Position numbers and translations under genes: made by a program | Shown here: positions 5,014 to 29,336 of the stretch, one piece after another | Layout: every line of letters starts with the position of its first letter | Numbering within the stretch: position 1 is the stretch's first letter | Notes under the pieces: model-generated | The model's database searches: none | What the model was told of the DNA's origin: nothing | The model's input: the letters and a program-made list of their open reading frames with translations, nothing else | Assembly: GCA_004563595.2 (NCBI GenBank) | Contig: CP042461.1 | Location: forward strand, 180,001-212,000 | Direction: 5' to 3' | Length of the DNA: 32,000 nt | Source: Candidatus Saccharimonadota bacterium | GTDB taxonomy: Bacteria > Patescibacteriota > Gracilibacteria > BD1-5 > UBA6164

Positions 5014-7863
5014 TTATTTTATAGGGGTTAAAAAGTTTCAAAGTTCTGAATAATGAAAAATAAAATCAATTATTTTAATATCATTCACGTTAAAATCTAT
5101 AATTTGTCCTTTTTGCATAGTTATTCATATATGTTTGTCACCATAGTTCGTTTTAAATTCAATGGTTTCATTTTCAGGTTTGTAGCTAATGCTTATTTCT
5201 TCCTTACCAAGTGTATTACTAGTGGTATTGATAATATGCTCGATTGCTTCAATATTGTTTAAGATGCTTGATAATGTTTCTTTCAGTGACTCAAGAGGGA
5301 CATCTCATACAATGTATACAGAATTTCATGAAAGTAAATATGTATTTTGTTCTTTTGCCTTTAGATCTAATAGTTTAAAATCTATATCTGAGAAACTATG
5401 AGAAGATGCATATGTATAATCAGAATTGAGGACTCAGCTATATTTTATGGTTTTTCAATTTTTATTAATGTTCATTCAAAACTGAACTCAAGATATATAA
5501 ATATCATAATCAGTACTATTACTTTCCTGAGTCATACGAATATTATTGTATATAATAGAGAAGTAATCATCTATTTTTGTAAAATCTCAGTTGGTTCAGA
5601 GTAACTTGTTTCTTTTAAAATATTTTGTAAATTTATCCTCCGTTCATATATCGGGTTCATTACTACCTCCTATTATGGGCTGCGGTTGTTTCTTAGATTC
5701 TATAATAAAATTATTGAGAAAAAACTTTTTAAAGTCATATTTATCTTTTTCAGAACTCTGAGCTGCTTTGTATTTTTCTTCTAGGGACTCTTTCATATCA
5801 TTCAGATCATAAGATCATTTTTTTTCTTCCCATTCACCTTTTTCATTGATAAATGTAATGGTATTTATTTTATTTCAGTCATATGGATGAAGGAGAAAAG
5901 AAAATGTTTCCTTTCCTATATTTAAATTATTTATTTTATAACATTCATATTCTCAAAAAATATTTCAGGTTGTATCTTCAGTTTCTTCAATCTCAGGATT
6001 TTGACAGTAGTTATAATTTTTTAATTCAATATGTGTATTCATAAGTAAAAGTCATTGGAAGTTTGAGAGAAAAATGAGCGCTTTATCTTTACTGAGTTTT
6101 TCTGCATCAGTTTTCCCATTATCTAGAATAGGGTCGTTCCCTCCAAACCTAGAATCGTATTTTATAGTATATGCCTTATAGTCACTGAGAGCTAGGAAAT
6201 ATTCATCAAATATTTTTTGCAATTCTATATATTCATTTCTGAGAGTTTTTTCGTTATTTTTTTCAGGATCGAGAATATTTTTATTGGTATTATAAAAGGA
6301 TATAAGTTTTATAATATTTTTTTCTAACAGTATATAGTTCTCGTAAGTATTGTTTTGTAAACTTACAGTTTTTAATAATCATTCCTTGGTTCTTTCCTTT
6401 TCAAAGAAATTGTTTCTTATTATATACGTGAAGTTTCGTAAAATTTTAGAATTGATAAGAAGTCAAGTATGTAAAATAGTAAGGTTATTTGTATCATAAT
6501 AGGTTTCGCTAATGTTTACATAATTGTTAAAGAAAAGTATGAGTTCCTTTGCATTTGTATCTTTTAAGTCAGTTATAAGGATTTGTTCCAAGAAGAAGAG
6601 AAGAGAACTATTTGGTTTCTTATTTTCATCTTCATCATACTTTTTTATAAATGTATTGAGCTGGCTATATAAGTTATTTGATTGCTTAAAGTCATATGAC
6701 AAGAAAGTATTTTTGAGAGAGAGGATAGAAGGAGATATTGAGGATGCTTTTTTCTTGTTTAATTGTAAATATAAATGAGAAAAATTTAGGAGATGAGTGT
6801 TATCTTCATTTGTTGTGAATAATACATTTTTATAATAAAAATATATTATTCACAACATTTTTTTATATTCAGCTGTATTATTTTTTTTCAGATCGTTCAT
6901 AGTCTCTGAAATAAAATTGATAGATTCATTTACTTCTTCTTTTTTGTTTATAATTTCATGTAAGCTTTTGAGTATAAGGTTTTCATTATATATTTGTTTT
7001 TTTTCATTATTTAAAAATAATTCATAATATTTTTTTATAAATATTTCTCCTGGAAATGGTGAAAAAATAGCATCAGATAAATATTGTATTTCTTGAGAAC
7101 TTTTTTGGTATTCCAGTAATATATAATGAAAAGTGTCTTTTAAAAAATTATACTCAACCTCGTTAGAAGAAAATGATTGAAGAAAAAGAGGGTTTATATT
7201 GTTTTCTCATGTAATAAGAGGTTCATTAAAATATGTCAGAGGGAAGCTTTGAGAGATTTTGAATAAGTCAGCATTTAGTAAAAATCTATTCCATTTTGGT
7301 TTAATAGTAATATATGTATGAGGGTACAAATCAAGAGATGAAGCTGGAGTATTTGTTTCTGTATTGATAAGTGAAAGTTGTAATTTTGTGTTGATTGAAA
7401 AAATAACAACTTTTTTTGGGTTGAATGAATTCACAAGGAAGATTCATGGTCATGAGTTTTTTATCTGGAATCAACCTCAAGAAATTATGTATTTTTTGTG
7501 TAATTCATTCAAGTGGAGTAAATAGATTCCAGATTTTAATTTTAAATGAGTTATAGCTCAAGTTAATGTTTTTGTATAATCTCAACTGGAGTATATAGTA
7601 TCTGCGAGTGAAAGCTTCTCTGCAAGAATATTTATATTTTTTGATGAAGTTGTAATTTTTTTTAAAGATCAAGTTTGATCTAGAACTTGAAGGTCATAGA
7701 GTCATATCTCTATATCTTGTGAACTTATTTCTTCAATTTTAGAATAGTCTGAGGAAATAAAGCTCAGAGATATAAGACCTGATCAGAGGATGATAACAAT
7801 AATTACAAATATGATTTTTGATAAAAAATTCACTGCTTGATATATTAAAATGTAATAGTACAT
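5014..7863 (-). CDS. large hypothetical protein, 949 aa, N-terminal TM anchor, Asn/Lys/Ile-rich, no recognisable domain
   Basis: A single frame is open from ATG 7863 to TAA 5014 once TGA is read as Gly. Track fragments 6463..6702(-) and 7207..7434(-) are in this same frame. The N-terminus is MYYYILIYQAVNFLSKIIFVIIVIILGSGLISL. Confidence 0.75.
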
Positions 7864-7928
7864 ATTTTAGGTCTCACTCTAACCTTATTTTGTTTTTTGT
7901 AAAGAAACTTTGATATTTTTATTTGAGC

Positions 7929-8993
7929 TTAGTCATATCTGATATTTTTACTTTTATCTTGTTGAAAAATATCTAAAATTTTTGTTATTATTTGTTGATT
8001 TTTAAGCAAAAGTCCAATTTCTCTATTGAAATCAAGACTATAGTTTGAAAAATTAATACTTCATATATAGAGGTATTTATTATCAACTAGAATCATCTTT
8101 GCATGCATTTTTATTTTTTGTAATGGAACTATATCAATTCATCCTTCTTGAAGCCTTTTTATATCATTTATATCATTCTTCCATGAAGATTCTGATATGA
8201 TAGCTGATATCTTGACTCCTTCTCAAGCTTTTTTAAGGAGAAGTTTTTCAAGGTTTTCATCTTTGAAATATTGAAAATATATTTTTATATCTTTTTGAGC
8301 ATTATTGATTAATAAGTGGAGTTTATTTCTTGAATAATTTGGGCTTAAAATAAGATTCGAATCATATATATTCTGTTTTATTCATTTAAAATCTGACTGA
8401 AATATTTCTTCTAAAACAGAGACTATTTTTTTATCTTTTGTAAAAATAAAAAAATCTCTATTGAAGTTAAATGTTGAATAGCTGAGGTTTCAAGTTGAAA
8501 TAATAGCTTCATTATCTATTAATAGAAGTTTTGAATGATTGAGTGAATAATTGCTTCATTTTGACCAAACAACATTTATCTTGTTTTTCTTTAAAAAATC
8601 AAAAGTTTTATTGTTAATATTTGTTGCCTTATATGGATTTTTTTCTAAAATTACTTGGACATTAACACCTCTTTTTTGAGCCTTTTTTAAGCTTTCTTTT
8701 ATTTGTTTTTCTGTGAGAATATAGACTTCAATAAGAACATGATTTTGAGCAGTATCTATTTTATCTAGGATGTAAGTGAGTACTTGAGGGTTAGGGGTAT
8801 GTGATATAGACGTGTTTTTTAGCGTTCTTATATCTGAGAGTTGAAAATTTTGAACATTGGACTCTACTTGTTTATTTTGATTTTGTAACTCTTTGCTATT
8901 TTCATAAAATTTATGATATTCTCATCAAAAAAAATATGAGAATATACTGATAAATAGTACTCAAAAAATTATCAGGAAATATCTTTTGATCAT
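7929..8993 (-). CDS. phospholipase D / cardiolipin synthase-like protein with two HKD motifs, 354 aa, N-terminal TM
   Basis: First HKD motif: NHSKLLLIDNEAIISTGNLS. Second: MHAKMILVDNKYLYIGSINFS. The N-terminus MIKRYFLIIFGVLFISIFSYFF is hydrophobic. Confidence 0.85.
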
Positions 8994-10140: not shown

Positions 10141-10279
10141 TTTTAGCTATTAGTGGTTAGATATTATAAAATATCAAGAATAAATATTGAGAGGATTTTA
10201 TAGGGTTTTCCTTTTTTGTAAAGAGGGTTTTTGTTGAGATTATATATCATGTAAGTTATTTTATATCAGGATAATCTAA

Positions 10280-10380
10280 AAATACAAGAGTTATTTTCTT
10301 GATTTTTGGCTTATTTTTCAGTATATATAATATACGAAATATAGTTTTGGAATGTTTTAATTGTGTTACTTGGAAAAAAT
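10280..10380 (+). promoter_or_regulatory. upstream element of pilin gene 1; partial copy of the element upstream of pilin genes 3 and 4
   Basis: It shares aaatacaaga ... tttttcagtatat with 14145-14238 and 16531-16636. Exact -35/-10 elements not resolved. Confidence 0.35.
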
Positions 10381-12552
10381 ATGAAAAAAATAATAAAAAA
10401 TAGTTTTTGATTCACGCTTGTAGAATTAATAGTAGTAATTACAATAATTGCGATTTTATGAACAATAGCATTTATATCACTACAGTGATATAGTAAAAAC
10501 GCAAGAGATTCTGTGAGAATCGCAGATGTACAATCTTTGGTAAAAAGTTTAAGTCTATTTGAGATAAAAACTTGAATTTTTCCTGAACCATCAAACTGAA
10601 CTTCTGTAAGTTTTTCGTGATGAGAAATATGGACACAATGAACTATTTGAGATAGTGTAATAGTCAATATTGGTCAATTAAGTAAAAAAGTGCTTGATCC
10701 ATCAACGGAATCTGAATATACATACTCAAGGTTGAACACAAAGAAGGAATACCAAATTGCAGCAGTGATTGAAGGTGATCTATGAATAAACTCATCACCT
10801 CATTTTTCTTCAGTAACTCATGCTGCATGAACAAATCCTTGAATTGCTTATGTGAAATGAAACTATAATTGAATGTTAGCAAAAGTTCAAACATGAGCAG
10901 TAACATATGTGTTAGCTGTTCCAACTATTATATCATGAGATATATCAGTTACTGATATTATTAATTTACAGCAATCAAATAAGCTTGTTTATAATGGAAA
11001 AAATAACCTTCCAGCAAGTTATGAGTCTTCTAAGTTTAAAGTCGATGGGGGATGATTTGTTTTTAATCCTTCAGATATAGTAGTCTATATTTGATCTACA
11101 AGTACTCTAACAGCAGTTGATAATCAACTCAGTTTAATGAGTAATACTCAAAATGTATATAGCGGAACTGACGTGTCAGGCTTAGATAGTCAGATTGATA
11201 AACTCGTTGATATAAGTGTTGATCTGAATAGTCCTACAGATGAAGCAAAAGAGTTTGCGGGTTATATAGTTAAAAATAGTGTAAACCCTGGGGTTGAAAT
11301 AAATATTAGTACTTCTTCTCAAGAATCTGTTATATGTTGAGGATGAGACTATAATAGTGCATATAATGTAAATTTATGATACTTTAATGGAAGAACTATT
11401 CCAAATAGAGCAGCGTTTGTCGCATTAAAACCAGATGGTTCTATTGTTGCTTGGTGAGATGATTCGTATGGATGATCATGAGCACTTGCACCAAGTGGTA
11501 GTGGTTATGAAAAAATATATTCATCTGAAAAAGCATTTGCAGCCTTGAAATCAGATGGAACAATTTCTGTATGGTGAGATGCTGATAATGGTTGAACCGG
11601 AGGTCCGATTGATAACTGATATGTAGATATCTCTTCAACATTAAATGCCTTTGCCGCGTTAAAAGATGATGGAACAATTTCTGTATGGTGACCGTCTTGA
11701 ACGAGTGCTTGAGATCAAGCAAATGCTCCAAGTACATGAGATTATACGAAAATATATGCAGGTAAATATACGTTTTCAGCCTTAAAAGATGATGGGACTG
11801 TATACGCATGGTGAAGTTACGTTACAAATTGACCAGTAGCCGGAGTTTGATATACTTCCATTTCTGCTAGTCAATCAGCCTTTGCAGGATTACATGAAGA
11901 TGGGAGTATATCAACGTGGTGAGAAGGAGGCTATGGTTGAATTTGATGACCTATAGATAATTGATATATATCAATAGCTTCAACACAGAGAGCATTTGCT
12001 GCTTTAAAATCTGATGGGAGCTTATCAGCTTGGTGAGCTGATTCATATGGATGAACAGGAACTTTGGTTGGTCCATTTACTTCTGTTTCTGCAACAGAAA
12101 ATGCATTTGCTGCATTGAAAACAGATGGAAGTATTGAAACATGGTGAGGAAGTGGGAACTGATGAACTGGAGGACCGGTATGAACATGATATACAAAAAT
12201 ATATGCAAATAATTATGGTTTTGCTGCCTTAAAAAATGATGGAACTATATATGCATGGTGAAGTAGTAGTTATGGATGAATATGAGATGTAGCATGAACA
12301 TGATATGTTAAAATATTTGGGAATAATTATGGTTTTGTTGCATTAAGGTCTGATGGAACTGTATATGGATGGGGAAGTGGAGGAAGCGGATATCCTGTAG
12401 ACAGCTGATACATAAATATCATGGCTACAGCAAATGCTTTTGCTGCAATAAAGGATGATGGAAGTATGAGCTTATGGGGATCTCAATATTATTGAGCAAC
12501 AGGAGGGCCCAATGATTCATGATATACCTCACTTAACTGAACGTGCAAGTAA
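10381..12552 (+). CDS. type IV pilin-like protein (A-type N-module) with C-terminal 10-repeat RCC1-like beta-propeller, 723 aa
   Basis: N-terminus MKKIIKNSFG|FTLVELIVVITIIAILGTIAFISLQGYSKNARDS is a prepilin cleavage/methylation motif. The C-terminus has 10 repeats of AFAALKxDGSIxxWG. Track ORF 11137..11340(+) is in frame. Length is a multiple of 3 from ATG to TAA. Confidence 0.88.
11410..12549 (+). repeat. 10 tandem coding repeats of about 38 aa (consensus GY..I.S...AFAALK.DGSI..WG....GG.G)
   Basis: The periodic gcatttgc(t/a)gc..taaaa..gatgg....tggtga is visible directly in the nucleotides. The WG dipeptide is mostly TGG-TGA. Confidence 0.85.
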
Positions 12553-12582
12553 TATTTTATTTTATAGAAACTTGTTTCCTCA

Positions 12583-14145
12583 ATGAAAAAAATAATAAAA
12601 AATAGACTTTGATTTACATTAGTAGAACTTATTGTTGTTATTACCATTTTAGCAATTCTTGGTACTATTGCATTTATAAGTTTGCAATGATATAGTAAGG
12701 ATGCAAGAGATAGTAAAAGAATAAGCGACATAGCTAATATTGAAATATCTTTAGAGTTATTTTCGCTTGCAACATGAAAATATCCACTTCCGGATAATCC
12801 ACAAACTGTTATATATAGTTGATCTATAGTATTATGGAATCAATGAACTGTTTGATGAAATGTAGCAACAAACTTGTCAAAAAATTTGTCAGAAATACCA
12901 TTAGATCCATTATATGGAACTGAGTATGTATATTCAACACTTGAAAATAGAAAAGAATATGAATTAATGAGTGTATATGAGTGAGGTAATATAGGAGGAA
13001 ACTGATTATTAGATAACACGTATGCAGCTACGAGTCCAACAGTAAAAATAGTTGGTACTTATAATGGGCTTTTTATTCATACTTCAAATTATATAATACC
13101 ATCTCCAAGTATTATAACATCAGAAACACTCCCACTTGCGTTTGATGCACAGTCAATACAGTCACAAGTGGTAACAGGATGAACGAATGTACCAAATATA
13201 TGAACAAGCAAAGTACAAGTATCAACAGGGGCATTATCAAATATTACACTGTCAGCTTATATATGAAGTGCAGATGCAAACTCATATAAATATGAATTAT
13301 TATCTCTATATAAAACAATACAATGAGCGTATACAGGTTCAAGTTTAATAGGAAATTGAATATATAAAGCGTTGTTTGATCAAACAAGCAATGATGAAAA
13401 GGTAGTTTTTATAGATTCAGTGTTAAATATTACCAGAAGCTCACCAATAAATATAATTACATGGTCAGAGTTAGACTTAAATTGTGATGCAGATGATATC
13501 CCTATTTGAGATCAAGTATGGGCATGATGTAATTCTACATTATGACTCTGATTAGAATGGGGGCAACTCGACTGAGATTTATGAACAAATAATTATAATT
13601 GAGGATGAAGTTTTTGTTTTAATTATGAATGAGGTGCAGCGACATGTATTAAATGAGATATAACAATGGCATCAAATACAAAAGCAAATACTTGGTATAC
13701 TGGAACAAATTCAAACTGAGATACTGAGTTTGCGAGTATATGGTGAAAATCTTATACATGGGAAAATTCAGGTAGCGCATGTGCTCCGGGCTTTCATGTC
13801 CCAACAGATGCTGAACTAGAAATTCTTGAAACAACACTAAAATGAGGAGTTAATTGTAGAAATTCAACAAATTGAGAATTGTGTGCTTGATTAGGGTGGG
13901 CATGACATAACGCTCAATCTACAACTAATAACATGGCTCAAGCCCTTAAAATTCCTTTATCAGTTAATCGTCTTACGAACTTAATTGATTCTTACAATAG
14001 AGGAAATTATGCACATCTATGGTCCTCAACTGAAGGCTCTAGTGGTACTGCGTATGGGAGATCGCTAAAATGGGATACTACGACAATTAACCGTCTCAAT
14101 TGGAGTACAGATTATGCTTTTAATGTCCGTTGTATACATGATTAA
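12583..14145 (+). CDS. type IV pilin-like protein (B-type N-module) with C-terminal FISUMP (Fibrobacter succinogenes major paralogous) domain, 520 aa
   Basis: N-terminus MKKIIKNRLG|FTLVELIVVITILAILGTIAFISLQGYSKDARDS. The C-terminus reads IGDQVWAGCNS..YTWENSGSACAPGFHVPTDAELEILE..HLWSSTE..AFNVRCIHD*, the TIGR02145-type pattern. I checked every codon and found no in-frame TAA/TAG. It lies 30 nt after gene 1, so it is probably co-transcribed. Confidence 0.85.
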
Positions 14146-14238
14146 AATACAAGATATATCTTCTCTTTTCAGTATATTTCATTTACTTAGTATGTAAAAA
14201 ATAATATTATTTAGTTTATTATAATTCCCTCTCATCTT
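14145..14238 (+). promoter_or_regulatory. conserved upstream element of pilin gene 3
   Basis: Near-identical to 16531-16636: aaatacaagatatatc...ttttcagtatat..catttac.tagtatgtaaaaaa.aatattatttagtttattataa. Confidence 0.4.
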
Positions 14239-16440
14239 ATGAAAAAATTAAAGAAAAACAGATTTTGATTCACCCTTGTAGAATTAATAGTAGTGATTAC
14301 TATCCTTGCTATCTTGTGAACTATCGCATTTATATCACTTCAATGATATAGTAAAAGTGCAAGAGATTCTGTAAGAATATCAGACGTTGAAAATATAGTA
14401 ACAAGTTTGACTCTTTATGAAGTACAAAAATGAGCGTTCCCTGTTCCATCAGATAATGTTGAAGTAACTTATTTGGGATGAGAAGTATGGACTCAATGAA
14501 CTATTGGAGACAGTGTACTTACGAACCTTGCTCAAATAAGTAATAAAATAGTAGATCCTTCAAGTGGATCAGAATATACTTATTCTAGATTGAATACAAA
14601 AAAAGAATACCAGGTAGCTGCGGTATTTGAGTGATGACTTGCTTTTGAAAGTGATAATAACATTCTTTCTTCAGCTCACGCAGCGTGAAATGTAGCATGA
14701 ACAGCGTACGTAAAATGAAACTATAATGGGATGTTAGCAAAAGTAAGTACATGATGAACATTGTATACTCTTGCTGTTCCGACTTTAATATCATGAGATA
14801 TAACAGTGACAAGTCTTACTGCATTACAAGCTGCAAATAAACTTGTGTACAAAGGTACTGCTAATTTGCCGGCAAGTTACGAATCTTCTAATTTTAGAGT
14901 TGAGGGAGGAGGTTTTGTATTTAATCCATCAGATATAGTAGTGTATACATGATCAATGAATACTCTATCAGATATTACAAACAGAGTTCAGTTAGTTGAG
15001 AGCTTACAAAATGTGTATGACGGTACAGATTTAGCAACCTTAAATCCAGATATTCAGACACTTGTGGACACAATAATTAATCCAGGATATGCTTCAGCAG
15101 AAGCAGAATTATTATCGAGTAATATAATTAAAAATAGTATTAATCCTAGTATAAATGTAAGCATAGCATCTGAAGCAACTTTTAGATGTGATGGAGGTGA
15201 TTATAATACAGCATATAATAATTATTGATGATATTATAGTGCATATACTATGCCTAATACAGGAGCTTTTGCAGCACTTAAAAGTGATGGTACTATATTT
15301 GCATGGTGAGATTCAAGTAAATGATGAACATGAGCACCGGTTGACGATTGATATAAAAAAATAGCATCTTCAGCTGAGTCTTTTGCAGCCTTAAAAGATG
15401 ATGGAAGCATTACTGTATGGTGAAATGGAGGTGCTGGATCATGAGCTTTGGCTCCTAGTGAGAGTTGATTCATCAAAATATCTTCAACATCAAACTCTTT
15501 TGCCGCATTAAAGGAAGATGGGACAATTTTTGTATGGTGATTACCATGAGCAAGTGCTGGAGATCAAGCAGAGGCTCCAACCGGTAGTGATTACAAGAAT
15601 ATATATGCGGCAAATTATACTTTTTCAGCTTTAAATAACGATGGAACAGTATATTCATGGTGAAGTTATGTTACTAATGGTCCTGTAGCTGGAGTATGAT
15701 ATACTTCTATATCTTCTAGCTCATCAGCATTTGCTTGATTAAAAAGTGATGGGACTATATTTGCATGGTGAGATGGAGGATATTGATGAATTTGAAATGT
15801 TACATGAACATGATATGTTTCAATTTCTTCAACTACGAGAGCATTTGCAGCCTTAAAAGATGATGGATCAATTTTTACATGGTGAGATGGAAGCTATTGA
15901 TGAACATGAAGTACTTCATGAGCTATATCAGGGACATGATATACTAAAATATTCTCTACACAGTGAGCATTTGCAGCTCTAAAGGATGATGGAAGTATTA
16001 CTGCGTGGTGAACAAGTGGATGGTGATGAGATAATACAGAAGTTCCAAGTTGAACATGATATATAAATATTTATTCGAATTCAAGCGCATTTGCAGCATT
16101 ACATGGTGATAATGAAACTATCTATGGTTGGGGCTTTGCTAGTACAGGGGGAGTATGAGCTGTCGCGGGGAGTTGATATACTAATGTTTATGCTGCTCAT
16201 TATTGATTTGCGGCATTAAAACCTGATGGAACCATAAAAGTATGGTGAAATATGGATTCAAATAAACCATCAGAATCAGAAACATGATTTACAAAAATAA
16301 TGTCAACAGAGAAAGCATTTGTGGCAATGAAGTCTGATGGAAGTATTTATGCTTGGTGAAATAGTGCAGATGGAGGTGATAATAATGATGCACCAAATGA
16401 TATATGATATGTGTCTATTAATTGAGTTTGTAACCAATAG
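14239..16440 (+). CDS. type IV pilin-like protein (A-type N-module) with C-terminal 10-repeat beta-propeller, 733 aa
   Basis: N-terminus MKKLKKNRFG|FTLVELIVVITILAILGTIAFISLQGYSKSARDS, followed by 10 AFAALKxDGSIxxWG repeats. Track ORF 14956..15228(+) is in frame. Confidence 0.88.
15265..16437 (+). repeat. 10 tandem coding repeats of about 38-42 aa (propeller blades) in pilin gene 3
   Basis: Same consensus as 11410-12549. Confidence 0.85.
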
Positions 16441-16456
16441 ATCTATTAAATAATAT

Positions 16457-16491
16457 AAAAAGCTTATAAATTACATATTTATAAGCTTTTT
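16457..16491 (+). terminator. rho-independent terminator after pilin gene 3
   Basis: aaaaagcttataaat / tacat / atttataagcttttt forms a 15 bp stem including A/T extensions, followed by T-rich sequence. Confidence 0.6.
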
Positions 16492-16530
16492 ATTCGCTTC
16501 AGAAAAGGTCTTTATACTATACTTTTTTAA

Positions 16531-16636
16531 AAATACAAGATATATCTTTTTGCTTTTATTGTCTATTTTCAGTATATTCCATTTACCTAGTATGTAAAAA
16601 ACAATATTATTTAGTTTATTATAACCTCTTCCTGTT
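16531..16636 (+). promoter_or_regulatory. conserved upstream element of pilin gene 4
   Basis: Copy of 14145-14238 with a short insertion. It follows the terminator, so gene 4 is probably its own transcription unit. Confidence 0.4.
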
Positions 16637-18811
16637 ATGAAAAAGTTAATGAAAAGAAGTTTTTGATTCACACTTGTAGAATTAATAGTAGTGATTACTA
16701 TTCTTGCTATCTTGTGAACTATAGCATTTATATCACTACAATGATATAGTAAAAATGCAAGAGATTCTGCCAGAATATCGGATATAGAAAATATCGTAAC
16801 TAGTTTCACTCTTTATGAAGTACAGAGATGATCTTTTCCCGTTCCATCAGATGGAGTAGAAATAACTTATTTAGGATGATCAGTATGGACTCAATGAACT
16901 ATTTGAGAAAGTGTTATTACCAATCTTTCTCAAATGAGTAAAAAACCAATAGATCCATTCAGTTCTTCTGAATATACCTATTCAAGACTCAATAGTAAAA
17001 AAGAATATCAAATTGCAGCAGTGTTAGAGTGATGACTTGCTTTTGAGAGTAATAATACTTTTTCTTCAGCACACGCTGCATGAAACTTAGCATGAACAGC
17101 ATATGTAAAATGAAACTATAACGGGATGTTAGCAAAGGTAAATACATGATGAATATTGTATACACTTGCTGTTCCAACTTTAATATCATGAGATATAACA
17201 GTGACAAGTCTTACTGCACTACAAGCTGCAAATAAACTTGTATATAAAGGTGCTGCTAACTTACCAGCAAGTTATGAATCATCAAACTTCAAAGTTGATG
17301 GAGGAGGGTTTGTGTTTAATCCATCAGATATTGTAGTATATACATGATCAATGGGTACATTATCTGATATTACAAATAGAGTTCAATTAGTTGAGGCTTT
17401 AAAAAATGTTTATATAGATACTGACGCCTCGGATTTAAGTCCAGATATTCAAACGCTTACTAGTACAGCTATTAATTCAGAATATGCTACGTCTGAGGCT
17501 GAATTATTAGCAAGTAATATAATTAAAAATAGTATCAACCCTAGTATTGATGTAACTATCGTATCAGAAACAAAATTTTTATGTAACGGAGCTGACCATA
17601 GTACAGCTTATAATGCAAATGGATGATTTTTTAACGTTTCAAATTTCCCGAACACGCAAGCATTTGCTGCTCTAAAGAACGATGGAAGTATCTCTGTTTG
17701 GTGAGATGATTCTTATGGTTGATCATGAGCACTTGCACCAAGTGATAACTGATATATAAAAGTAACTTCGAATGAGACAGCATTTGCTGCTTTAAAGGGA
17801 GATGGGACAATTACTGTATGGTGAAATGCAACGAATGGGTGATCTGGAGGTCCAAGTGGGGGCTGATTTGTAGATGTGTTTTCTTCAAGTGCAGCTTTTG
17901 CAGCTTTAAAAGATGATTGATCGATACAAGTATGGTGAGATGCTGGGCCATGAGTTCAAGAAGTAGCTTTGAGTGATACTGAATATACAAAAATATATTC
18001 ATCTAATTATTCATTTGCTGCTTTAAAAGAAGATGGGACTATATATGCATGGTGAAGTTATCCTGGAATTTGAGATGTTCCTGGGGTATCATATCTATCT
18101 GTTTCTGCAACTACCTCAGCTTTTGCTGGATTAAAATCGGATGGAAGTATTTATTCGTGGGGACTTTCTGGTCACTGATGATCATGAGCACCAGCAGCTA
18201 CTTGATATACATCAATTTCAGCGACTGAAAGAGCTTTTGCAGCATTAAATAGTGATGGAAGTATTTTTGTTTGGTGAGATGATAGTTATTGATGAACATG
18301 AGCTATAGACCCAAGTTGATATACAAATGTATATGCTAATTTTAGAGCTTTTGCGGCAACAAAAACGGATGGAAGTATTACCGTATGGTGAAGTAGTAGT
18401 AATTGATGAAGTTTAGGGTTCTCGGGTACGTGAACAATTAAAATTGCATCAAATCGTTATGCATTTGCTGCTCTAAACAGTAATGGAACTATATATTCTT
18501 GGTGAGCTTGAGGTAATGGATGAATTTGAAGTGTAACGGGAACATGATATGTAGATATATATTCTAGTGATAATGGATTTGCGGCTATGAAATCTGATGG
18601 GAGCATATATAGTTGGTGATGATCATCTTCATCTTGATACCCAGTTGATAGTTGATATACAAAGATATTTTCTACTGCATGAGCTTTTGCTGCAATGAAG
18701 TCAGATGGAAGTATAACAGCTTGGTGATCAAGTTGGTATTGAGGAACATGAGCTGAATGAATTCCCATAGATGATTGATACGTCTCAATTAATTGAGTAT
18801 GTCTTAATTAG
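16637..18811 (+). CDS. type IV pilin-like protein (A-type N-module) with C-terminal 10-repeat beta-propeller, 724 aa
   Basis: N-terminus MKKLMKRSFG|FTLVELIVVITILAILGTIAFISLQGYSKNARDS, followed by 10 repeats. Track ORF 17351..17626(+) is in frame. Confidence 0.88.
17660..18808 (+). repeat. 10 tandem coding repeats (propeller blades) in pilin gene 4
   Basis: Same consensus as 11410-12549. Confidence 0.85.
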
Positions 18812-18825
18812 AATTTATACAAATA

Positions 18826-18861
18826 TAAAAAACTCTTTCGCTTTAAAGCGAAAGAGTTTTT
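18826..18861. terminator. bidirectional terminator between pilin gene 4 and ssb
   Basis: aaaaa-actctttcgc-tttaa-gcgaaagagt-tttttt: a 10 bp perfect stem flanked by an A-run and a T-run. Confidence 0.75.
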
Positions 18862-18884
18862 TATATAGTAATAATACTTTTTGA

Positions 18885-19570: not shown

Positions 19571-22500
19571 ATGTTGAGAAAAGTTCTATTGAGCATATTG
19601 ATCGGTACTATCTTATTAAATTGAGGGCCTATTGTAAATGCGGCATGAGATGAGCCAAGTTATACAAAACTAACTGTGTTAGATTTACATACCTTCAATG
19701 AATATAGGTATAGAATTACTGATAAGTACTTTAATCTCAGAAACAAGTTTGAGATTGATGGAACTATAAATAGTAAAATTTCTGGAGAGATATTAGACCT
19801 TGCAAGGGAAGGGTACAACTATCTTCCGGATAATTTATCGAATAAAAACTTATATAATAAATTAAAAACATCTATAGAGAGAGGGAAAAAATTTCCAGAT
19901 AATGAATCAAATTATACAGCAATCGTTGTGGCTATTCAAAGCTATTTAGAAAAGGCAGATATTCAAAAAATTCAATGAAAAATTGAAACAGTAACAAAAG
20001 AATGAAATGCCCCTTTTTCTGCTACGTTAAGATGAAGAGTGAGTGATCCATCGGGAACAAAAATAGAGTCATATAACTACGTATGGTGGATTGATGTAGC
20101 ATGAAAGAGAAAAATTATATGAAAAAAGCCATCTATTAACTATATTTTTAAGGAAGAATGAAATTTTTCTGTATTTTTAGATGTTATTTCTAGTCACAAA
20201 AATACAAAATGATACACAGATGTGCTTCCTTTTAGATCAAGAGCTGATATTAAAGTAAAAGAAAAAATTGCATCAGTTATTATCAAAGTTAACTCTGATC
20301 GTTTAAGGCAAAAAGATGAATTAAAATTTACTCCAGACGAAGCAAGGTTTGGTTTACTTTTTGATGCTACCAGTTCAACCCCAGCGTCAGGAGGGAAATT
20401 TACAAATACATCATGGGATTTTTGAAATGGTTTGGAAAGGGAAAATTCATGAGATCCAAAAGTAGAAAGAGTTATATATGCAAAAGAGGGAGAATACACC
20501 GTTATATTGAAACTAAGAACAAATGAGAATAGAACTGCAGAGAGAAAGTTTATAGTTTCTATTCATGATCCTATTGCAACTATTAAAAGTTCTCAAGAAG
20601 ATTGATTCTTATGAGATAAGTTTACTTTTTCTGCAAAACCTTCATGAAATGATGATGATTTGAGCTACTCTTGGGAGATAGTTGATATAGAAAATGATAG
20701 TATTATTTTTAGAAAAACAGGGAGTTTATTTACCTATAGTTTTAAGGATAAGTGAAAATATAATGTTAAACTTAGAGTAACTGAGCCTTCGTGAGAAGAG
20801 GATATTGATACACAGATTATACATATTAATTCTCAAGCCCCGGTTGCTGATTTTAAAAATTCAAAACCATTTCCACATAAACCAAATACAGTTTTACTTG
20901 ATGCAACAAAGAGTTATGATCCAGATTTTTCTGATGATTGAAAGTTACAATTCTCATGGATTATTAATGGAGAAAGAAGAGTTTTAGATAGGCCAAACTT
21001 TAATGGTTCTATCTGATATTATACGTTTGATTCTATATGAGATCAAAGTGTTGTATTAGAGGTAGTTGATCCAGATAAAATACCATCTCAAAAAACAGAA
21101 AAAGTAAGGGTAGATTCTATTTTATCTGTTGATTTATTTGCTTTTCCAAGAGTAACTACTAGGGAAAATACTATTAGATTCGTTGCTCAATCCCCAGAAG
21201 CAAGATTTTATGAATGGGATTTTGGAGATGGAGAAAAAAAATGATCAAAGGAAGCAGAAATATCACACAAATATAAAAAAAGTTGAGTATTTACTGTAAA
21301 AATAAAGGTAATTGATAAAGAGGATAGAGAAAATACATTTCAAAAAAATGTATATATTTGAGAATCAAATAGTCCATTTGCATTTATAAATATTCAAAAC
21401 TGAGTGAGTCAGGAAGTGGCATATAAGCAGTGAGTATGTAATGGTGTATGAGCATATATTGTTGATAGAGTAAACATCACGAGGTTTTCGTGAGAAGAGA
21501 GTATTGATATTACTGGAAAAACTTCATGAATTTCATATTCGTGGAAGCTGTGAAGAGATCAGTATTTTTCATCAAGAGATTTTCCTCAAAAATTTGATGA
21601 ACTTGGTTGTGTTCCGTTGAAATTAACTGTAAAAAGTGATCAAAACTGAAGAACTCATAGTAGAACTGTATGGCTAAAAGTTGAAAATATCAAACCAACG
21701 TTATCATCCGTGAATGTACAAATTACAGATGAATCTACAGATCCTGTGATTGTAAAAGTAAGTGCTTTATGATCAAAAGATCTTGATGGAGTGATTCAAT
21801 CATACTTATGGTATTATTATACAGATATTGATTCTGAACCACAAGATTTTAGAGCAACTAAATCTTCAGCGACTACCTTTGTTTTACCAAAAATAACATG
21901 AAACTATTATTTTGTAGTGGTTATGAAAGATAATAATGAAGCAAGAGTCACCTCAGAAGAAGTAACGGGGTCAAAATATTTTGTAACACTTGCCTGAGAT
22001 AATATAAATACTCCTCTAGTAAAGTTAAGTGTGAATGACTCTTCTGTATCTATTTGAGATGAAGTCGTATTTACAGCAAAAGTTGAGAATATCCTCGGTC
22101 ATGATTTATCAAAAAAAGTAGAATATTCTTGGGACTTGGATGGAGATGGGTTTTATGAAAAAAAAGGTTCTCAAGCTACGATAACTCATAAATTTGAAAT
22201 CTCTTGAGAGTTACATCCAAAAGTAAAAGTAAAATACAAAGGCTTTAGTAGTACAAAAAATCTTACTGTAAATGTATCAAATATATTGAAACCAGATTTT
22301 TGATACATTTCAATTTGAAATAAATTCATTATTTTTGATAAGAGTATTTGAAAATATGATACAATTCAATGGAACTTAGGTGATGAAACAAAAGTTACAG
22401 ATAAGAATGTTTTCACTCATACATATGATGATGGGAAAGCATCTCATATGGTAGAATTAAAAATATCTGATGGGACAAAAGTAAAAACTATACAAATAAA

Positions 22501-25054
22501 AGTAACAAAAAATGTAAAGAATATTATTGAAGCAAAAAAGAAAGGACTTGTTTTATTCTCAAGCTCAGATATTTCTTCTGATGATGAACTTATATTAAAA
22601 AAAGCATCAGAAAAAGTATTTATATATTTAGGAGAGAGTAACCCTGATATATCAAACTATATTGCCGACTTTGATATTGAAAATGACTCAGACTTGAATT
22701 GAGGGAAAGATGATGATGAAGATAACAAGTCAGATGCAAGTTTTCGTTCATGAGACGCAGTTGAGATAAAATTAAATACAAATAAGCATCAAAAAGTTAG
22801 ATTGACTATAAAAGATAATTCATGATCTCTCGTAGAGAGTTATGACTTTATGATTGTGAAAGAATATATTGTAGAAGAAGAGATAGACCTGAGTAGTTTG
22901 AGTTTTGATTGAGTAACTGATGCAGAGTTATTAAAAATAGAAAAATTAAAGAGTTATATTTCTGATTTACCAAAGGGTGATAAACTAAAGGCATTAATGT
23001 ATGTTCAAAAACTTCAGGAAGAGTGGTTTGATGATACTGAAAAAACAAGAGTTATTCTTGAATTTGAATGATATATTTATGAAATAGATGCAAATAATGC
23101 AGAAGAAATAGTAAATGTTCTAGAGTCATTATTAATAGAGTGAGAAGAAGATAGAAGTGAAAGAAATATAACTTTTAATGCATTGAAGAACCTAATCCCT
23201 ACAAATATAAAATGTGGTGACCTAGGTGAAGCAACACCTGAAACTGATTCTAATACATGTTACACAGGATTAATAGAAAAATTAGAAACTATAAAAATAA
23301 ACAATAATATTGATGAGAATAGAGAGATAGCAAAAGGTATACTGAATGTTATCTGAGAAGATACAAGCATGACAGCAAAACAAAAAACTGATTTTAAGGC
23401 AATTTTAACAACGCTTGTATATGGCTGAGTTGATAATATTCCTGAACCAGTAAAGCAGGTTATTCAAGGTCCATGAGATGAAGAATGAAGTGATCTACTA
23501 TGATTATTAAAGTGGATACTTTTAGTTATTCTGTATATTATACTCGGGTTTATATGAATAATATTTGCATATTGGGTATACTATAAACTTATAAATAAAG
23601 ATGATAATGTATGATTTCAAGACTTTATTATAGAGAAAACTTCTTGAAAAAAAATACAAGATCCAGAACCTATGGATGATTCTTTAGATATTTTAAGTGA
23701 TCTATCAACTGATAAAGCGTGAGATGAAGCAGAGGAGTGAATGAAATGATCTGAAGAGGAATGAGAAGAAGAACAAATATGAGTTTCTCAGGTGGAAACG
23801 AAACCTACAGAAGCGAAAATAGTGGAACATAAACAAGAACAAAAAGTAGAAGCTCCAAAATGAGATGTTCCTGATTGGTTAAAAGGGAGTGTTTCTGATG
23901 ATGATTTTAAAAAAGAAGTAACTCAAATGAAAACGAAGATTACAGAAACAAAGTGAGTAGAACAAAAACAAGACCAAAAAATAGAAGTTACAAAGTGAGG
24001 TGTTCCTGATTGGTTAAAGTGAAGTTTTACTGAAGATGATACAATAAAGGATATAAAGAAAAAAGATGAAATTATTAAAACTGATGAGAAAATAAAAACA
24101 ACTCAAGTGGAAACCAAGGTTGTAGAAACAAAATCAGTGGAGCAAAAGCAAGAACAAAAAGTGGAACCTGCAAAATGAGATGTTCCTGATTGGTTAAGAG
24201 GTAGTTTTACTGAAGATGATAAAAGTAAGGATATAAAGAAAAAAAATATTAATAAAGGGAACCAACCAAAAAACAGAGAAGAAAATAAAGGTGAAAAGAC
24301 TATAGTTACTCCTAAAAAGGAGAATGTTTGAACTGATGAAAAGTTAAAAATTTTATCTAATGATGATTTAGATAAAATAACAAAAATAGATGAAGATGAT
24401 AATATTCCTGATTGGTTAAAGGGGAGTTTTGATGAAGAGAAGAAACAAAATGAAATACCTGCTGTAGATAAGAAACAAGAAAAAATAACTGTTGTAAGTA
24501 AAGAAATAGAGAGGAAACCAGAGAAGAAAGTAGATGTAAAAGAAAAAACTTTAAAGAAAGAAGAAAAGAAAGAGCTGAAAAAAGATGAACTTAAAAAAGA
24601 TATACCTAAGAAAACTGAGCAAAAAAAATCTGGTACACCACAAATCACAGTAAAAAAAGATATAACAAAATGAGTAGAAGAGAAAGGAAACATTAAGTCT
24701 GAAAAAGCAGTGATAGCACAGAGTAAAACAATTGTAAAAAAAGAAGAGACAGTGAAAAAAACTCAAATGACAAAAAATATAAAAGAAGAAGCCCTACAGG
24801 AAAAAAGTATAAAAGAAGTGAAACCTAAACCTAAACAGGAGAAAGTTAAGGAGGAAAAATCGAAACTAACTCCAGAAAAAAAAGGAGAAGCGAAACCAGA
24901 ACAAACGACTCCAGTGCTTAAAAAAGAGGAAGAAAAAAAGACAGAAACTAAAAAAGAACTTCTGAATAAAAAAGGTACAGAAAAGAAAAATGGTGAGTTA
25001 TGGGATGATGGTATGAAGATACCAGATTGGTTAAAAACAGAAGATGATAAATAA
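19571..25054 (+). CDS. giant surface protein, 1827 aa: signal peptide, about 8 PKD/Ig-like repeats, one TM helix, Lys/Glu-rich C-terminal tail with PDWLK motifs
   Basis: Signal peptide: MLRKVLLSILIGTILLNGGPIVNAA. PKD-type signatures: WDFGNG, YSWEIVD, FSWIING, YEWDFGDGE, YSWKLG, YSWDLDGDG, IQWNLGDE. The TM helix LLGLLKWILLVILYIILGFIGIIFAYWVYY lies at about 23497-23595. Track ORFs 19676, 20222, 22448 and 24710 (+) are all in this frame. Length is a multiple of 3. Confidence 0.85.
23861..24440 (+). repeat. coding repeats carrying the (G)DVPDWLKGSFxEDD motif; four copies here and a fifth at 25015-25054
   Basis: The string tgagatgttcctgattggttaa recurs at about 23861 and 24176. Variant copies lie at about 23996 and 24411. 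The first three share a preceding VEQKQ(E/D)QK(V/I)E segment. Confidence 0.8.
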
Positions 25055-25082
25055 AAAAAGCCTCAATTTTGAGGCTTTTTTT
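25054..25082. terminator. bidirectional terminator between the PKD gene and the inverted pilin gene
   Basis: aaaaaagcctc-aatttt-gaggctttttt. Confidence 0.7.
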
Positions 25083-25084
25083 AT

Positions 25085-26647
25085 TTATCTAATGTATAAA
25101 GATATTCTTTCTCATGCATAATTCCATACTGGAGATGTATCATTAAAATTAGCGTATAAATTTAAGGTGACATAATCATAATCATAAGCATTTCCATGAT
25201 TATAATATCAAGACCTTCCATTTCAAAATAATTTTTCCTTTGGTATAGAATTTCCAACATTATCTCAAGCTGAAGTCCAATTACTCATGTAATTTATTCA
25301 ATAAAAGTCCCAGTCATCAGATCAAGTAGGAGTATTGTCTCTATTCTCTTGCCAGAGTCAATGGTCATTATACCATCAAGCATCTCTATATATATTGATC
25401 CATTCATATTTTGAATTTATATTTGTAACATCTATTAATCAAGGGGTATATTGAACTCCATTCTCTTGAGCTTGTAGGAGTACATTTGATCAAATTATTA
25501 ATAATAATTCTTTAGTTCCGTCCGTGTAGTCTGTAATAGCTTTTGTGAAATCTGAATCTAAATCAAATCAGCTTCATGTATTACTAGAAATATCTAAAGT
25601 ACCTATTATATTTGTGGAATTATTTCAAATTAATTCCCACCCTCCTCAATTTGTAGTCATATTACAGTATACGCTAAATCAAGTTCAATTATCTTGTGGA
25701 TCAACTGTATATGTTCCATCTCAAGTTGAATCTCAATTGTTTAATATATCTTTACAACTTCATGGAAGTGTTTCTATGACTATCTCATTTGTATTACTTG
25801 GGGTACTATTATTCACTACAACCGAACCAGCAAATGCTATTTTTTCATCATCTGTAGTTTGAGCTAATAGTGTTTTGTAGATTCATTTATTTGCTAAGCT
25901 TGAACCTGTATAAGCTCACTTTAATACTTCATATACAGCCAACTTTTCTACTGTAGATGAGTCTCCATCGATAGATCAATTATATACAGATAATGATAAA
26001 CTGGATAATGCTCCTGTTGATACTGAAATTTTTGCAATTCACATATTTGGAATATTCGTTCCACCATTGGTTACTTGTGATTGTATAGAGTCTGAATCAA
26101 GCACTCATGGTAATGTATCTGCTGTTATAATACTGGGTGTTGGGATTATATAATTGGCTGTTTTGATGAAAAGTCAGTTATATGTTCCATCCATTCTTAC
26201 AGTTGTATTTGTTGCTGCATAGGTGGTATTTAATAGTCCATTACTTGATACATTACTTCATTCATATAAACTCATAAGCTCATATTCTTTTTTATTTTCA
26301 AGAGTAGAATATACATATTCTGTTCCATAGAGTGGATCAGTTGGTATTTTTGATAAATTCCTTGATAGGTTGGTTATAACTTGATTTCAGATCGTTCATT
26401 GATTCCATAGTGTAGATCAACTATATGTAACGTCTTGTGAATTATCTGGAAGTGGATATTTTCATGTTGCCAGAGAGAAAAGCTCCAGTGATATCTTGAT
26501 GTTATTTATATCACTTACTCTCGTACTATCTCTTGCATCTTCAGAGTATCATTGAAGACTTATAAAAGCTATGGTTCATAAAATAGCTAATATTGTAATT
26601 ACTACTATTAACTCAACCAGTGTAAAAGCTTGTTTGTGTGTGTTCAT
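25085..26647 (-). CDS. type IV pilin-like protein (B-type N-module) with C-terminal fibrinogen-like YCxxxxxGGGW domain, 520 aa
   Basis: The minus-strand translation starts MNTHKQA|FTLVELIVVITILAILGTIAFISLQGYSEDARDS. The first 270 aa or so are clearly paralogous to 12583-14145. They are followed by SCKDILNNGDSTGDGTYTVDPQDNGTGFSVYCNMTTNGGGWELI. Length is a multiple of 3. Confidence 0.85.
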
Positions 26648-29294: not shown

Positions 29295-29336
29295 ACGATA
29301 AAGAATATGATGATTTATTTGTATAAAAATAAAATT

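What the first reader, a model, noticed from the sequence alone, without database searches (positions are those of the whole stretch)
10280..18811. Tandem array of four modular 'pilin-adhesin' genes: prepilin N-terminus fused to large swappable binding domains
Four consecutive plus-strand genes of 723, 520, 733 and 724 aa all start with a textbook type IV prepilin signal. That signal is a short basic leader, then G|FTLVELIVVITI(I/L)AILGTIAFISLQGYSK.ARDS.

Ordinary major pilins are about 130-180 aa. These carry a conserved pilin-proximal module of about 270-290 aa plus a C-terminal domain of 230-430 aa predicted to bind ligands: three beta-propellers and one FISUMP domain. A fifth member lies inverted at 25085-26647.

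Putting the adhesin on the pilin polypeptide itself, in a multi-allelic array, is not a described architecture for CPR pili as far as I know. Table-25 lineages live as episymbionts or predators, so it would fit a host or prey recognition repertoire. No pilus assembly genes (pilB/C/M/N/O/T or a prepilin peptidase) are in the window.
Basis: partly seen in the sequence, partly recalled or inferred. Interest (0 to 1): 0.9.

Follow-up and report, generated by a model that had tools for sequence, protein, structure and literature searches.

The report
Cluster of modular adhesin-bearing pilins
Five neighbouring genes in a tiny, probably host-dependent Gracilibacteria bacterium encode type IV pilus subunits that each carry a large binding domain; this is real and tidy, but it belongs to the already described class of 'modular pilins'.

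Summary
Read with genetic code 25 (UGA = Gly), the window has four tandem plus-strand genes of 723, 520, 733 and 724 aa and a fifth, inverted gene of 520 aa. All five begin with a canonical prepilin signal (G/A at -1, F at +1, E at +5).

Each protein has a stem of about 300 aa and then a head. The stem is the α1 helix, a four-stranded pilin sheet and a second conserved module that no library names. The heads are ten BLIP-II/RCC1-like three-stranded repeats (P1, P3, P4), a FISUMP domain (P2) or a fibrinogen-related GGGWT domain (P5). P2 and P5 share a 69%-identical stem with unrelated heads, so head swapping is real.

The novelty claim fails. Raynaud et al. 2021 defined modular pilins, and their dataset lists pilin-FISUMP (40 proteins), pilin-fibrinogen_C (8) and pilin-RCC1. 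The window comes from the closed Gracilibacteria genome of Sieber et al. 2019, which noted '15 GspG ... large proteins, on average 528 aa' and reported PilB, PilC, PilD and PilT.

The most likely function is a set of alternative adhesin-carrying pilins, put into type IV pili by machinery encoded elsewhere, for binding to host or prey cells or to surfaces. This is a new member of a known kind, of moderate interest.

The parts
10279..10326 (+). Conserved upstream element of P1: AAAATACAAGA at 10279 and TTTTCAGTATAT at 10315, the latter 66 nt before the ATG. It is a candidate promoter or regulatory site.
   Evidence: The same two motifs lie upstream of P3 (14144, 14166) and P4 (16530, 16566). Function is inferred only; the generic sigma-70 scan was uninformative.
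10381..12552 (+). P1, a 723-aa modular prepilin: leader MKKIIKNSFG|FTLVE, stem to about residue 318, Cys319, ten 38-aa RCC1/BLIP-II-like repeats, Cys722.
12583..14145 (+). P2, a 520-aa modular prepilin: a stem of the second subtype (T2SSG-positive) to about residue 300, then a Cys-rich FISUMP head (C301 to C517). It starts 30 nt after the P1 stop, so it is probably co-transcribed with P1.
14144..14224 (+). Conserved upstream element of P3. It overlaps the P2 stop codon and is 91% identical over 68 nt to the element before P4.
   Evidence: (family D16).
14239..16440 (+). P3, a 733-aa modular prepilin with ten RCC1/BLIP-II-like repeats. It is GenBank QFR38794.1.
16457..16491 (+). Hairpin after P3 (AAAAAGCTTATAAAT...ATTTATAAGCTTTTT), a candidate terminator.
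   Evidence: read from the sequence.
16530..16624 (+). Conserved upstream element of P4.
16637..18811 (+). P4, a 724-aa modular prepilin (GenBank QFR38795.1), the one modelled. The model has α1 13-64, a pilin sheet 71-130, a second stem module 154-300, a linker 308-318 and three-strand repeats 342-718.
18827..18862 (.). Palindromic hairpin between the convergent P4 and ssb genes, a candidate bidirectional terminator.
25053..25082 (.). Hairpin between the end of the giant PKD-domain gene and the end of P5, a candidate bidirectional terminator.
25085..26647 (-). P5, a 520-aa modular prepilin: leader MNTHKQA|FTLVE, a stem 69% identical to that of P2, then a fibrinogen-related (GGGWT / intelectin-like) head at residues 298-520.

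Best explanation
The locus is a cluster of paralogous modular type IV pilins from a Gracilibacteria-specific 'long-stem' family.

Proposed mechanism (every step is inferred except the protein anatomy):
1. Each preprotein is inserted into the membrane. The prepilin peptidase PilD cleaves it after the Gly or Ala at -1.
2. The almost invariant N-terminal helix (FTLVELIVVITILAILGTIAFISLQGYS, with Glu5) lets every paralog enter the same filament core. That filament is built by PilB/PilC and retracted by PilT, all encoded elsewhere in the genome.
3. The roughly 300-aa stem (pilin sheet, a second conserved module, then a flexible linker) holds a C-terminal binding domain away from the filament.
4. 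The heads differ. P1, P3 and P4 carry ten-repeat BLIP-II/RCC1-like domains, which are probably protein binders. P2 carries a FISUMP domain and P5 a fibrinogen-related lectin-like domain, which are probably glycan binders.
5. Together the heads give the cell several binding specificities for host, prey or particle surfaces.

By analogy with Streptococcus sanguinis PilB and PilC, the most likely position is as low-abundance or tip-exposed subunits. Their position in the filament has not been determined.
For: Shown here:
- Prepilin signal: N_methyl and TIGR02532 are above cut-off in all five.
- Pilin fold: P2 and P5 pass the T2SSG cut-off. The P4 model (mean pLDDT 82) has α1 plus a four-stranded sheet, then a second module, a linker and a repeat domain.
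- Head folds: the P4 head matches BLIP-II (E 1e-13), then UVR8, HERC2 and RCC1. The P5 head matches FIBCD1, intelectin and XEEL lectins.
- Functional genes: the helix is conserved by purifying selection, not by recent gene conversion. The identical-codon fraction is 0.4-0.5, dN/dS is 0.12-0.23 and dS is 0.4 to above 1. All copies are full-length, have their own start codons, and three share an upstream motif.
- Head swapping on one stem: P2 against P5. In other Gracilibacteria the same stem carries LamG, fibrinogen_C, FISUMP, β-helix, Gly-rich, LRR and BspA heads. The second stem module occurs in 440 cluster representatives, nearly always at residues 135-310.

From the literature:
- This genome is reported to have PilB, PilC, PilD, two PilT and GspE, and no PilQ (PMC6851277).
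- Modular pilins act as adhesins in S. sanguinis (PMC8179133).
- Type IV pili are cited as essential for host adhesion in a Saccharibacterium (cited in PMC11452946).
Against: - Nothing here shows expression, cleavage, polymerisation or ligand binding.
- No assembly gene is linked to the array.
- My attempt to find this genome's PilB independently failed, because only the best 120 of 8,000 hits are listed. The machinery therefore rests on the published annotation.
- The stem-only homolog modelled poorly (mean pLDDT 51), and the second stem module has no recognisable relative.
- The ligand classes are guesses from distant fold relatives. FISUMP has no known function.
- An invariant helix with Glu5 in every paralog is more typical of major pilins than of tip minor pilins.
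Confidence: 0.65

Rival explanations
1. They are interchangeable major subunits rather than minor or tip pilins. Each paralog can build, or co-polymerise into, a filament that carries a binding head on every subunit (a 'bottle-brush' pilus). The cell changes or mixes specificities by choosing which paralogs to express, as with Haloferax volcanii PilA1-6.
For: - The polymerisation helix, including Glu5, is nearly identical in all paralogs and under strong purifying selection.
- In H. volcanii, six unlinked pilins with a conserved hydrophobic domain can each serve as the major pilin, with different adhesion (PMC4371748).
- This genome's 15 GspG-like pilins average 528 aa.
- Stem-only family members of about 300-340 aa exist and could form a plain shaft.
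- The long stem and linker could give the radial room that the heads need.
Against: - No type IV pilus is known to have 700-aa major subunits.
- The characterised modular pilins are minor subunits.
- The steric feasibility is my rough estimate only and was not modelled.
- No abundance data exist for these proteins.
Confidence: 0.2
2. The prepilin signal serves only for membrane insertion and anchoring, without long filaments. After cleavage the helix holds the protein in the membrane, or in a short pseudopilus. The stem spans the wall and S-layer to display the head, like the class III signal peptide sugar-binding proteins of Sulfolobus.
For: - Archaeal substrate-binding proteins use prepilin-type signals, and membrane-associated H. 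volcanii pilins give some adhesion without PilB/PilC (PMC4371748).
- The array is not linked to assembly genes.
- A stem of about 300 aa is a plausible spacer across the wall.
Against: - The helix is conserved far beyond what a simple membrane anchor needs, and it keeps Glu5.
- The genome is reported to keep a full pilus assembly and retraction set.
Confidence: 0.1
3. They are GspG pseudopilins of a type II secretion system, as the automatic annotation says.
For: - There are weak partial hits to TIGR01710 GspG and Pfam T2SSG.
- Public records, including the genome paper, name such proteins 'type II secretion system protein' or GspG.
Against: - TIGR01710 scores are 31-49 bits against a cut-off of 88.85.
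- No secretin was found in the genome, which fits a cell without an outer membrane.
- Pseudopilins of 520-733 aa with lectin-like or propeller-like heads do not fit a periplasmic piston.
Confidence: 0.03
4. It is a programmed variation system: silent cassettes feeding an expression locus by gene conversion (as in Neisseria pilE/pilS), or DNA inversion that swaps heads (as in the IncI PilV shufflon).
For: - There are several related copies in one place.
- P2 and P5 are inverted relative to each other, with 71-77% identity over about 800 nt.
- PilV adhesin variants set conjugation specificity in plasmid TP114 (PMC9045228, title and abstract as listed).
Against: - Every copy is complete, with its own start codon and leader, and three have their own upstream motif.
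- Synonymous divergence is high even in the invariant helix, so there has been no recent conversion.
- No recombinase gene or short crossover repeats are in the window.
Confidence: 0.02

Closest known systems
Modular type IV pilins (Raynaud et al. 2021, PNAS; S. sanguinis PilB-vWA and PilC-lectin)
   Same: - An N-terminal class III signal and pilin module is fused through a linker to a bulky binding module.
- Their InterPro survey already lists pilin-FISUMP (40 proteins), pilin-fibrinogen_C (8) and pilin-RCC1 combinations, with many CPR examples and one Gracilibacteria representative.
   Different: - Here the carrier is a two-part stem of about 300 aa, with an extra conserved module at residues 135-310, rather than a small pilin module.
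- Several paralogs sit together and share an almost identical helix.
- No experiment exists for this family.
Haloferax volcanii adhesion pilins PilA1-PilA6
   Same: - They are a set of paralogous pilins with a nearly invariant hydrophobic N-terminus and divergent C-terminal parts.
- They are not linked to the assembly genes.
- Different paralogs give different adhesive behaviour.
   Different: They are archaeal and small, with no grafted domains of recognisable fold, and each is shown to act as a major pilin.
PilY1/PilC tip adhesins of type IV pili
   Same: A β-propeller-containing adhesin is presented by a type IV pilus, and its modules are shared with modular pilins (discussion in PMC8179133).
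   Different: - PilY1 is not a pilin and is held by a minor-pilin complex.
- No PilY1 domain was detected here. The repeat domain is RCC1/BLIP-II-like and covalently part of the pilin.
IncI-plasmid PilV shufflon adhesins (R64, TP114)
   Same: Alternative C-terminal adhesin ends on one pilin scaffold determine which partner cell is bound (TP114 paper as listed; the shufflon details are from my own knowledge).
   Different: The shufflon uses one gene plus invertible segments and the Rci recombinase. Here there are separate complete genes and no recombinase.
BLIP-II (β-lactamase inhibitor protein II) and the RCC1-like propellers
   Same: BLIP-II is the best structural match to the P4 head. It has blades of about 40 aa with three strands and uses them for very tight protein binding.
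   Different: BLIP-II has seven blades and is a secreted soluble protein. Here there are ten repeats bracketed by two cysteines and fused to a pilin.

Membership tests
Type IV pilin / class III signal peptide protein | A short basic leader ending in G/A/S at -1, then about 20 hydrophobic residues with F at +1 and E at +5 | tested here: met
   KNSFG|FTLVELIVV... in P1 to P4 and HKQA|FTLVEL in P5. PF07963 scores 28.6-32.1 bits against a cut-off of 21.2, and TIGR02532 scores 22.6-25.0 against 16.3.
Type IV pilin / class III signal peptide protein | A long N-terminal α-helix packed on an antiparallel β-sheet (the pilin fold) | tested here: met
   P4 model: helix 13-64 and strands 71-78, 81-88, 114-118, 124-130, with pLDDT 85-95. 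PF08334 T2SSG is above cut-off for P2 and P5.
Type IV pilin / class III signal peptide protein | Cleavage and N-methylation by the prepilin peptidase, and polymerisation into a filament | not testable with these tools
   This needs biochemistry or imaging.
Type IV pilin / class III signal peptide protein | Cognate assembly machinery (PilB, PilC, PilD) in the same genome | tested here: inconclusive
   Sieber et al. 2019 report it for this genome. None is in the window. My bait search did not list this genome's PilB among the best 120 hits.
Modular pilins (Raynaud et al. 2021) | An N-terminal pilin module plus at least one extra domain that is not specific to pilus biology, joined by a linker | tested here: met
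   RCC1_2, Fib_succ_major and GGGWT/Fibrinogen_C lie C-terminal to N_methyl. The model has a low-confidence linker at 308-318. The same architectures are in their Dataset S1.
GspG, type II secretion major pseudopilin (TIGR01710 equivalog) | A score above the curated cut-off, a size of about 140 aa, and a secretin-containing T2SS | tested here: not met
   Scores are 30.6-48.7 bits against a cut-off of 88.85. Lengths are 520-733 aa. No PilQ or secretin is reported for the genome.
RCC1-like / BLIP-II-like β-propeller | Repeated blades that match RCC1 repeat models and a propeller fold | tested here: met
   PF13540 at E 6e-27 to 4e-33. Foldseek finds BLIP-II at 1e-13 and UVR8, HERC2 and RCC1 at 1e-10 to 1e-11.
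RCC1-like / BLIP-II-like β-propeller | Seven blades closing one ring | tested here: not met
   There are ten 38-aa repeats in each of P1, P3 and P4. TM-scores are only 0.4-0.59 on the target. I could not inspect the coordinates to see how the ten repeats close.
FISUMP domain (TIGR02145 / PF09603) | A score above the curated cut-off | tested here: met
   P2 scores 44.8 bits against 41.65 for TIGR02145 and 51.1 against 33.9 for PF09603.
Fibrinogen-related domain / bacterial GGGWT domain (NF040941) | The YCDxxxxGGGW motif region above cut-off, within a full fibrinogen-related domain of about 220 aa | tested here: inconclusive
   NF040941 scores 60.2 bits against a cut-off of 30. PF00147 scores 32.8 against 22 but covers only profile positions 4-48 of 221. 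PDB hits also cover only the first 50 or so residues. The head length of 222 aa fits a whole domain, but the rest was not modelled.
PilY1/PilC tip adhesin | A PilY1-type C-terminal propeller domain in a non-pilin protein | tested here: not met
   There is no PilY1 hit in Pfam or NCBIfam, and the proteins are themselves pilins.
pilE/pilS-type antigenic variation or shufflon | Silent partial cassettes or invertible segments, together with a recombinase or signs of recent conversion | tested here: not met
   All copies are complete. Synonymous divergence is high (pS 0.29-0.91 in the helix region). No recombinase is in the window.

The most novel reading that the evidence does not exclude
These pilins of 520-733 aa are alternative major subunits, not rare tip subunits. 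Gracilibacteria would then build thick 'bottle-brush' type IV pili with a lectin or propeller head on every subunit. They would switch or mix heads, all on one shared filament core, to recognise different host cells. The tandem array would be a host-range repertoire.
Probability: 0.18. Interest if true: 0.75.

Novelty: new member of a known kind. Interest (0 to 1): 0.36.

Why it matters
Gracilibacteria and their relatives are uncultured or barely cultured, have minimal metabolism and are thought to live off other cells. How they recognise partners is unknown.

This locus gives concrete, testable candidates: five heads of three fold types on a common pilus scaffold. It also shows that the same stem carries at least eight other head types across the lineage. 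That makes the heads good targets for recombinant binding assays or glycan arrays, and good markers for predicting host range.

It also corrects the public annotation. 'GspG / type II secretion' is not supported. Many database copies are mistranslated with Trp at UGA. The biology itself extends an already described principle, modular pilins, rather than revealing a new one.

Tried and rejected
- I worked round this by finding P4 itself in the protein database as P0030, which is 724/724 identical.
- **Stem-only homolog P0007.** The model was too poor to use (mean pLDDT 51), so I ran no fold search on it.
- **Profile of the five stems against PDB sequences.** It found nothing, so the second stem module remains unassigned.
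- **FISUMP head.** There is no PDB relative by sequence and no paper in the library.
- **Contig lookup of P0030.** The exact product is not on record.
- **PilB bait search.** This genome's PilB was not in the listed top 120.
- **Linkage of stem pilins to PilB or PilT in MAG STA_21.** The genes are 5-6 kb apart with unrelated genes between them, so I did not use it as evidence.
- **Sigma-70 promoter scan.** It found fewer sites than the shuffled controls, so it is uninformative in this AT-rich DNA.
- **GTDB scan.** The patterns contain Gly, so genomes that encode Gly mainly as UGA are under-sampled.
- **Gene conversion, silent cassettes or a shufflon.** Rejected.
- **Mobile element or phage origin.** Rejected, because all neighbours are housekeeping genes.
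- **Positive selection on the heads.** Not supported by gene-wide dN/dS of 0.28-0.33, although dS is near saturation.


Full report

Yes. Under table 11 the window has only short ORFs. When UGA is read as a sense codon, long ORFs appear at the stated coordinates. UGA is the most used glycine codon in these ORFs (450 TGA against 164 GGA) and falls on conserved glycines of the DnaJ Gly-rich linker and CxxCxGxG zinc fingers. The code is therefore 25.

The genes are:
- P1, 10381-12552, 723 aa
- P2, 12583-14145, 520 aa
- P3, 14239-16440, 733 aa
- P4, 16637-18811, 724 aa
- P5, 25085-26647 on the minus strand, 520 aa

All five pass the curated cut-offs of PF07963 and TIGR02532. P1, P3 and P4 match RCC1_2 at E 1e-27 to 1e-33. 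P2 passes both FISUMP models. P5 passes NF040941 (GGGWT) and touches Fibrinogen_C. No other prepilin-like gene is in the window.

**2. Source**

P0030 from the protein database is identical to P4 at all 724 residues. P0029 is P3 with exactly 56 G-to-W differences, which is a table-4 mistranslation. P3 and P4 are GenBank QFR38794.1 and QFR38795.1, on a 1,343,103-bp contig of Candidatus Gracilibacteria bacterium 28_42_T64. That is the closed genome of Sieber et al. 2019 (PMC6851277).

[quoted passage not shown] It also reports GspE, PilB, PilC, PilV, PilW, PilD and two pilT genes, and no PilQ. The genome is thus reported to have type IV filament machinery, and the large pilin-like proteins had been noticed. 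Their heads and this array were not analysed.

**3. Anatomy**

The five proteins fall into two stem subtypes. P1, P3 and P4 are 59-66% identical along their whole length. P2 and P5 are 69% identical over the first 285 residues or so and unrelated after that.

The AlphaFold model of P4, built with a 34-sequence alignment, has mean pLDDT 82. It shows:
- helix 13-64
- a four-stranded sheet at 71-130 (pLDDT 85-95)
- a second confidently folded β-plus-helical module at 154-300
- a low-confidence linker at 308-318
- repeated three-strand units at 342-718

P2 and P5 also pass the Pfam T2SSG cut-off at residues 36-141. The pilin fold after the helix is therefore supported.

The P4 head matches BLIP-II best (E 1e-13, target TM 0.57-0.59), and then UVR8, HERC2, RCC1 and ACR4. 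Each of P1, P3 and P4 has ten 38-aa repeats (114-nt period). Each also has exactly two cysteines, one at the stem-head junction and one three residues from the end.

The P5 head matches the first subdomain of FIBCD1, intelectin and XEEL lectins, and its 222 aa fit a whole fibrinogen-related domain. The second stem module matches nothing in Pfam, NCBIfam or PDB sequences.

**4. Are they functional genes or cassettes?**

All copies are complete. Synonymous sites have diverged even in the invariant helix: the identical-codon fraction is 0.4-0.5 for P2/P5 and P1/P2, and pS is 0.29-0.91. dN/dS is 0.12-0.23 in the helix, 0.15-0.21 in the pilin sheet, 0.16-0.42 in the second module and 0.28-0.33 in the heads. 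These are old paralogs held by purifying selection. The heads change two to five times faster than the core, and there is no sign of recent gene conversion.

P1, P3 and P4 share an upstream motif pair (AAAATACAAGA and TTTTCAGTATAT, the latter 66-73 nt before the ATG). Hairpins follow P3, P4 and P5. P2 starts 30 nt after P1. The inferred transcription units are P1-P2, P3, P4 and P5. The window has no recombinase or mobile-element gene, and all neighbours are housekeeping genes.

**5. The family elsewhere**

The P1/P3/P4-type stem recurs in many Gracilibacteria proteins. Their heads include FISUMP, BspA-type and other LRR, GGGWT plus LamG, Gly-rich, β-helix and SBBP domains.

In the MAG STA_21 the same stem carries LamG, fibrinogen_C and β-helix heads. 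A tandem pair in L016 has an identical first 366 aa and different Gly-rich heads.

The P2/P5-type stem is rarer, with 28 clusters. It includes stem-only proteins of 311-320 aa and versions with GGGWT-like, FISUMP-like (both read from the sequences) and DUF1566 heads.

The second stem module alone finds 440 representatives at 50% clustering, 115 of them at E <= 1e-10. It almost always lies at residues 135-310, in proteins of about 300 to 1,409 aa.

Other members in the source genome are dispersed, and one examined (P0060/P0079) is a single gene among unrelated genes. Elsewhere the genes are mostly single or paired. The four-gene array is a local expansion and not a general rule.

**6. Comparison with what is known**

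Raynaud et al. 2021 defined modular pilins. They showed that S. sanguinis PilB is an adhesin, and they found more than 1,200 such proteins in 264 architectures, with several CPR representatives and one from Gracilibacteria. Their Dataset S1 lists pilin-FISUMP (40 proteins, the fifth commonest), pilin-fibrinogen_C (8) and several pilin-RCC1 combinations. The statement that this architecture is undescribed is therefore wrong.

The closest functional analogues are:
- S. sanguinis PilB and PilC
- H. volcanii PilA1-6, which have a conserved hydrophobic domain, are unlinked to the assembly genes, and can each act as the major pilin
- PilY1 tip adhesins
- PilV adhesin variants of IncI plasmids

The 'GspG / type II secretion' label is not supported. 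TIGR01710 scores are well below cut-off, and no secretin was found in the genome.

**7. Mechanism and confidence**

I am confident (about 0.9) that these are modular type IV pilin-type proteins with exchangeable binding heads.

That they are incorporated into type IV pili and mediate attachment to host, prey or surface ligands is inference (about 0.65). It rests on the conserved polymerisation helix, the reported machinery, the fold relatives of the heads and experimental precedents in other bacteria.

Whether they are tip or minor subunits or alternative major subunits is open. The invariant helix with Glu5 and the precedent of H. volcanii keep the major-subunit reading alive (about 0.2). A purely membrane-anchored display role is less likely (about 0.1).

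**8. Verdict**

The functional idea is plausible. However, this is a new member, a lineage-specific long-stem subfamily, of an already described kind. Its proteins are already in GenBank and were already remarked on in the genome paper. Interest is moderate.

Noticed in passing
window 19571-25054 (+): A giant 1,827-aa protein lies between the array and P5. It has a signal peptide, several PKD domains, a hydrophobic segment near residue 1,330, and a Lys/Glu-rich tail with four copies of a (G)DVPDWLKGSF motif (DNA repeats at 23865-24460). It is probably another surface protein of the same cell-contact toolkit.
   Followed up: partly
P0035, P0047, P0037, P0043, P0049, P0073: The closest non-pilin relatives of the RCC1-like heads are 46-50% identical over the whole head. 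P0035 and P0047 are named lipoproteins of an uncultured gammaproteobacterium and of a Bathymodiolus thioautotrophic gill symbiont. The other four are unnamed proteins on one 1.5 Mb contig. This hints at exchange of head domains between Gracilibacteria and marine Gammaproteobacteria.
   Followed up: no
P0029, P0032, P0001-P0006 and others: Many public copies of these proteins are translated with Trp at UGA (table 4). P3 carries 56 G-to-W errors. This lowers apparent identity and hides the N_methyl domain in precomputed annotations.
   Followed up: yes
window P1 C319/C722, P3 C317/C731, P4 C316/C722, P2 C301/C517; homologs P0007, P0016, P0022: A cysteine at the stem-head junction and another near the C-terminus bracket the whole head. 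Stem-only homologs end in a small Cys...Cys loop. The heads look as if they were inserted into a C-terminal disulfide loop like the D-region of classical pilins. I could not check this in the model coordinates.
   Followed up: partly
L016 9839-13624: Two tandem pilin genes (645 and 605 aa) in another Gracilibacteria MAG have an identical first 366 aa and different Gly-rich heads. This looks like a recent duplication in which only the head diverged.
   Followed up: partly
window 12583-12760 versus 26470-26647: Between P2 and P5 the proportion of synonymous differences in the helix region is 0.91, above the 0.75 expected at saturation, although the amino acids are conserved. It may reflect strand-specific codon bias, since P5 is on the opposite strand.
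   Followed up: no
window 5014-8993 (-): A 949-aa protein with an N-terminal hydrophobic segment has no Pfam match. It lies next to a two-domain phospholipase D-family protein (PLDc_2) that also has an N-terminal hydrophobic segment. Both are just upstream of the array, beyond dnaJ.
   Followed up: no
window 28761-29612 (+): A gene pair encodes a weak HATPase_c-like protein (177 aa) and a STAS-like DUF4325 protein (101 aa), next to tRNA-Lys (28494-28569). Its function is unknown.
   Followed up: no
L008 and L009 (MAG STA_21): A PilT-type ATPase and a PilB/GspE-type ATPase lie 5-6 kb from stem-bearing pilins, separated by unrelated genes. This is loose linkage only.
   Followed up: partly
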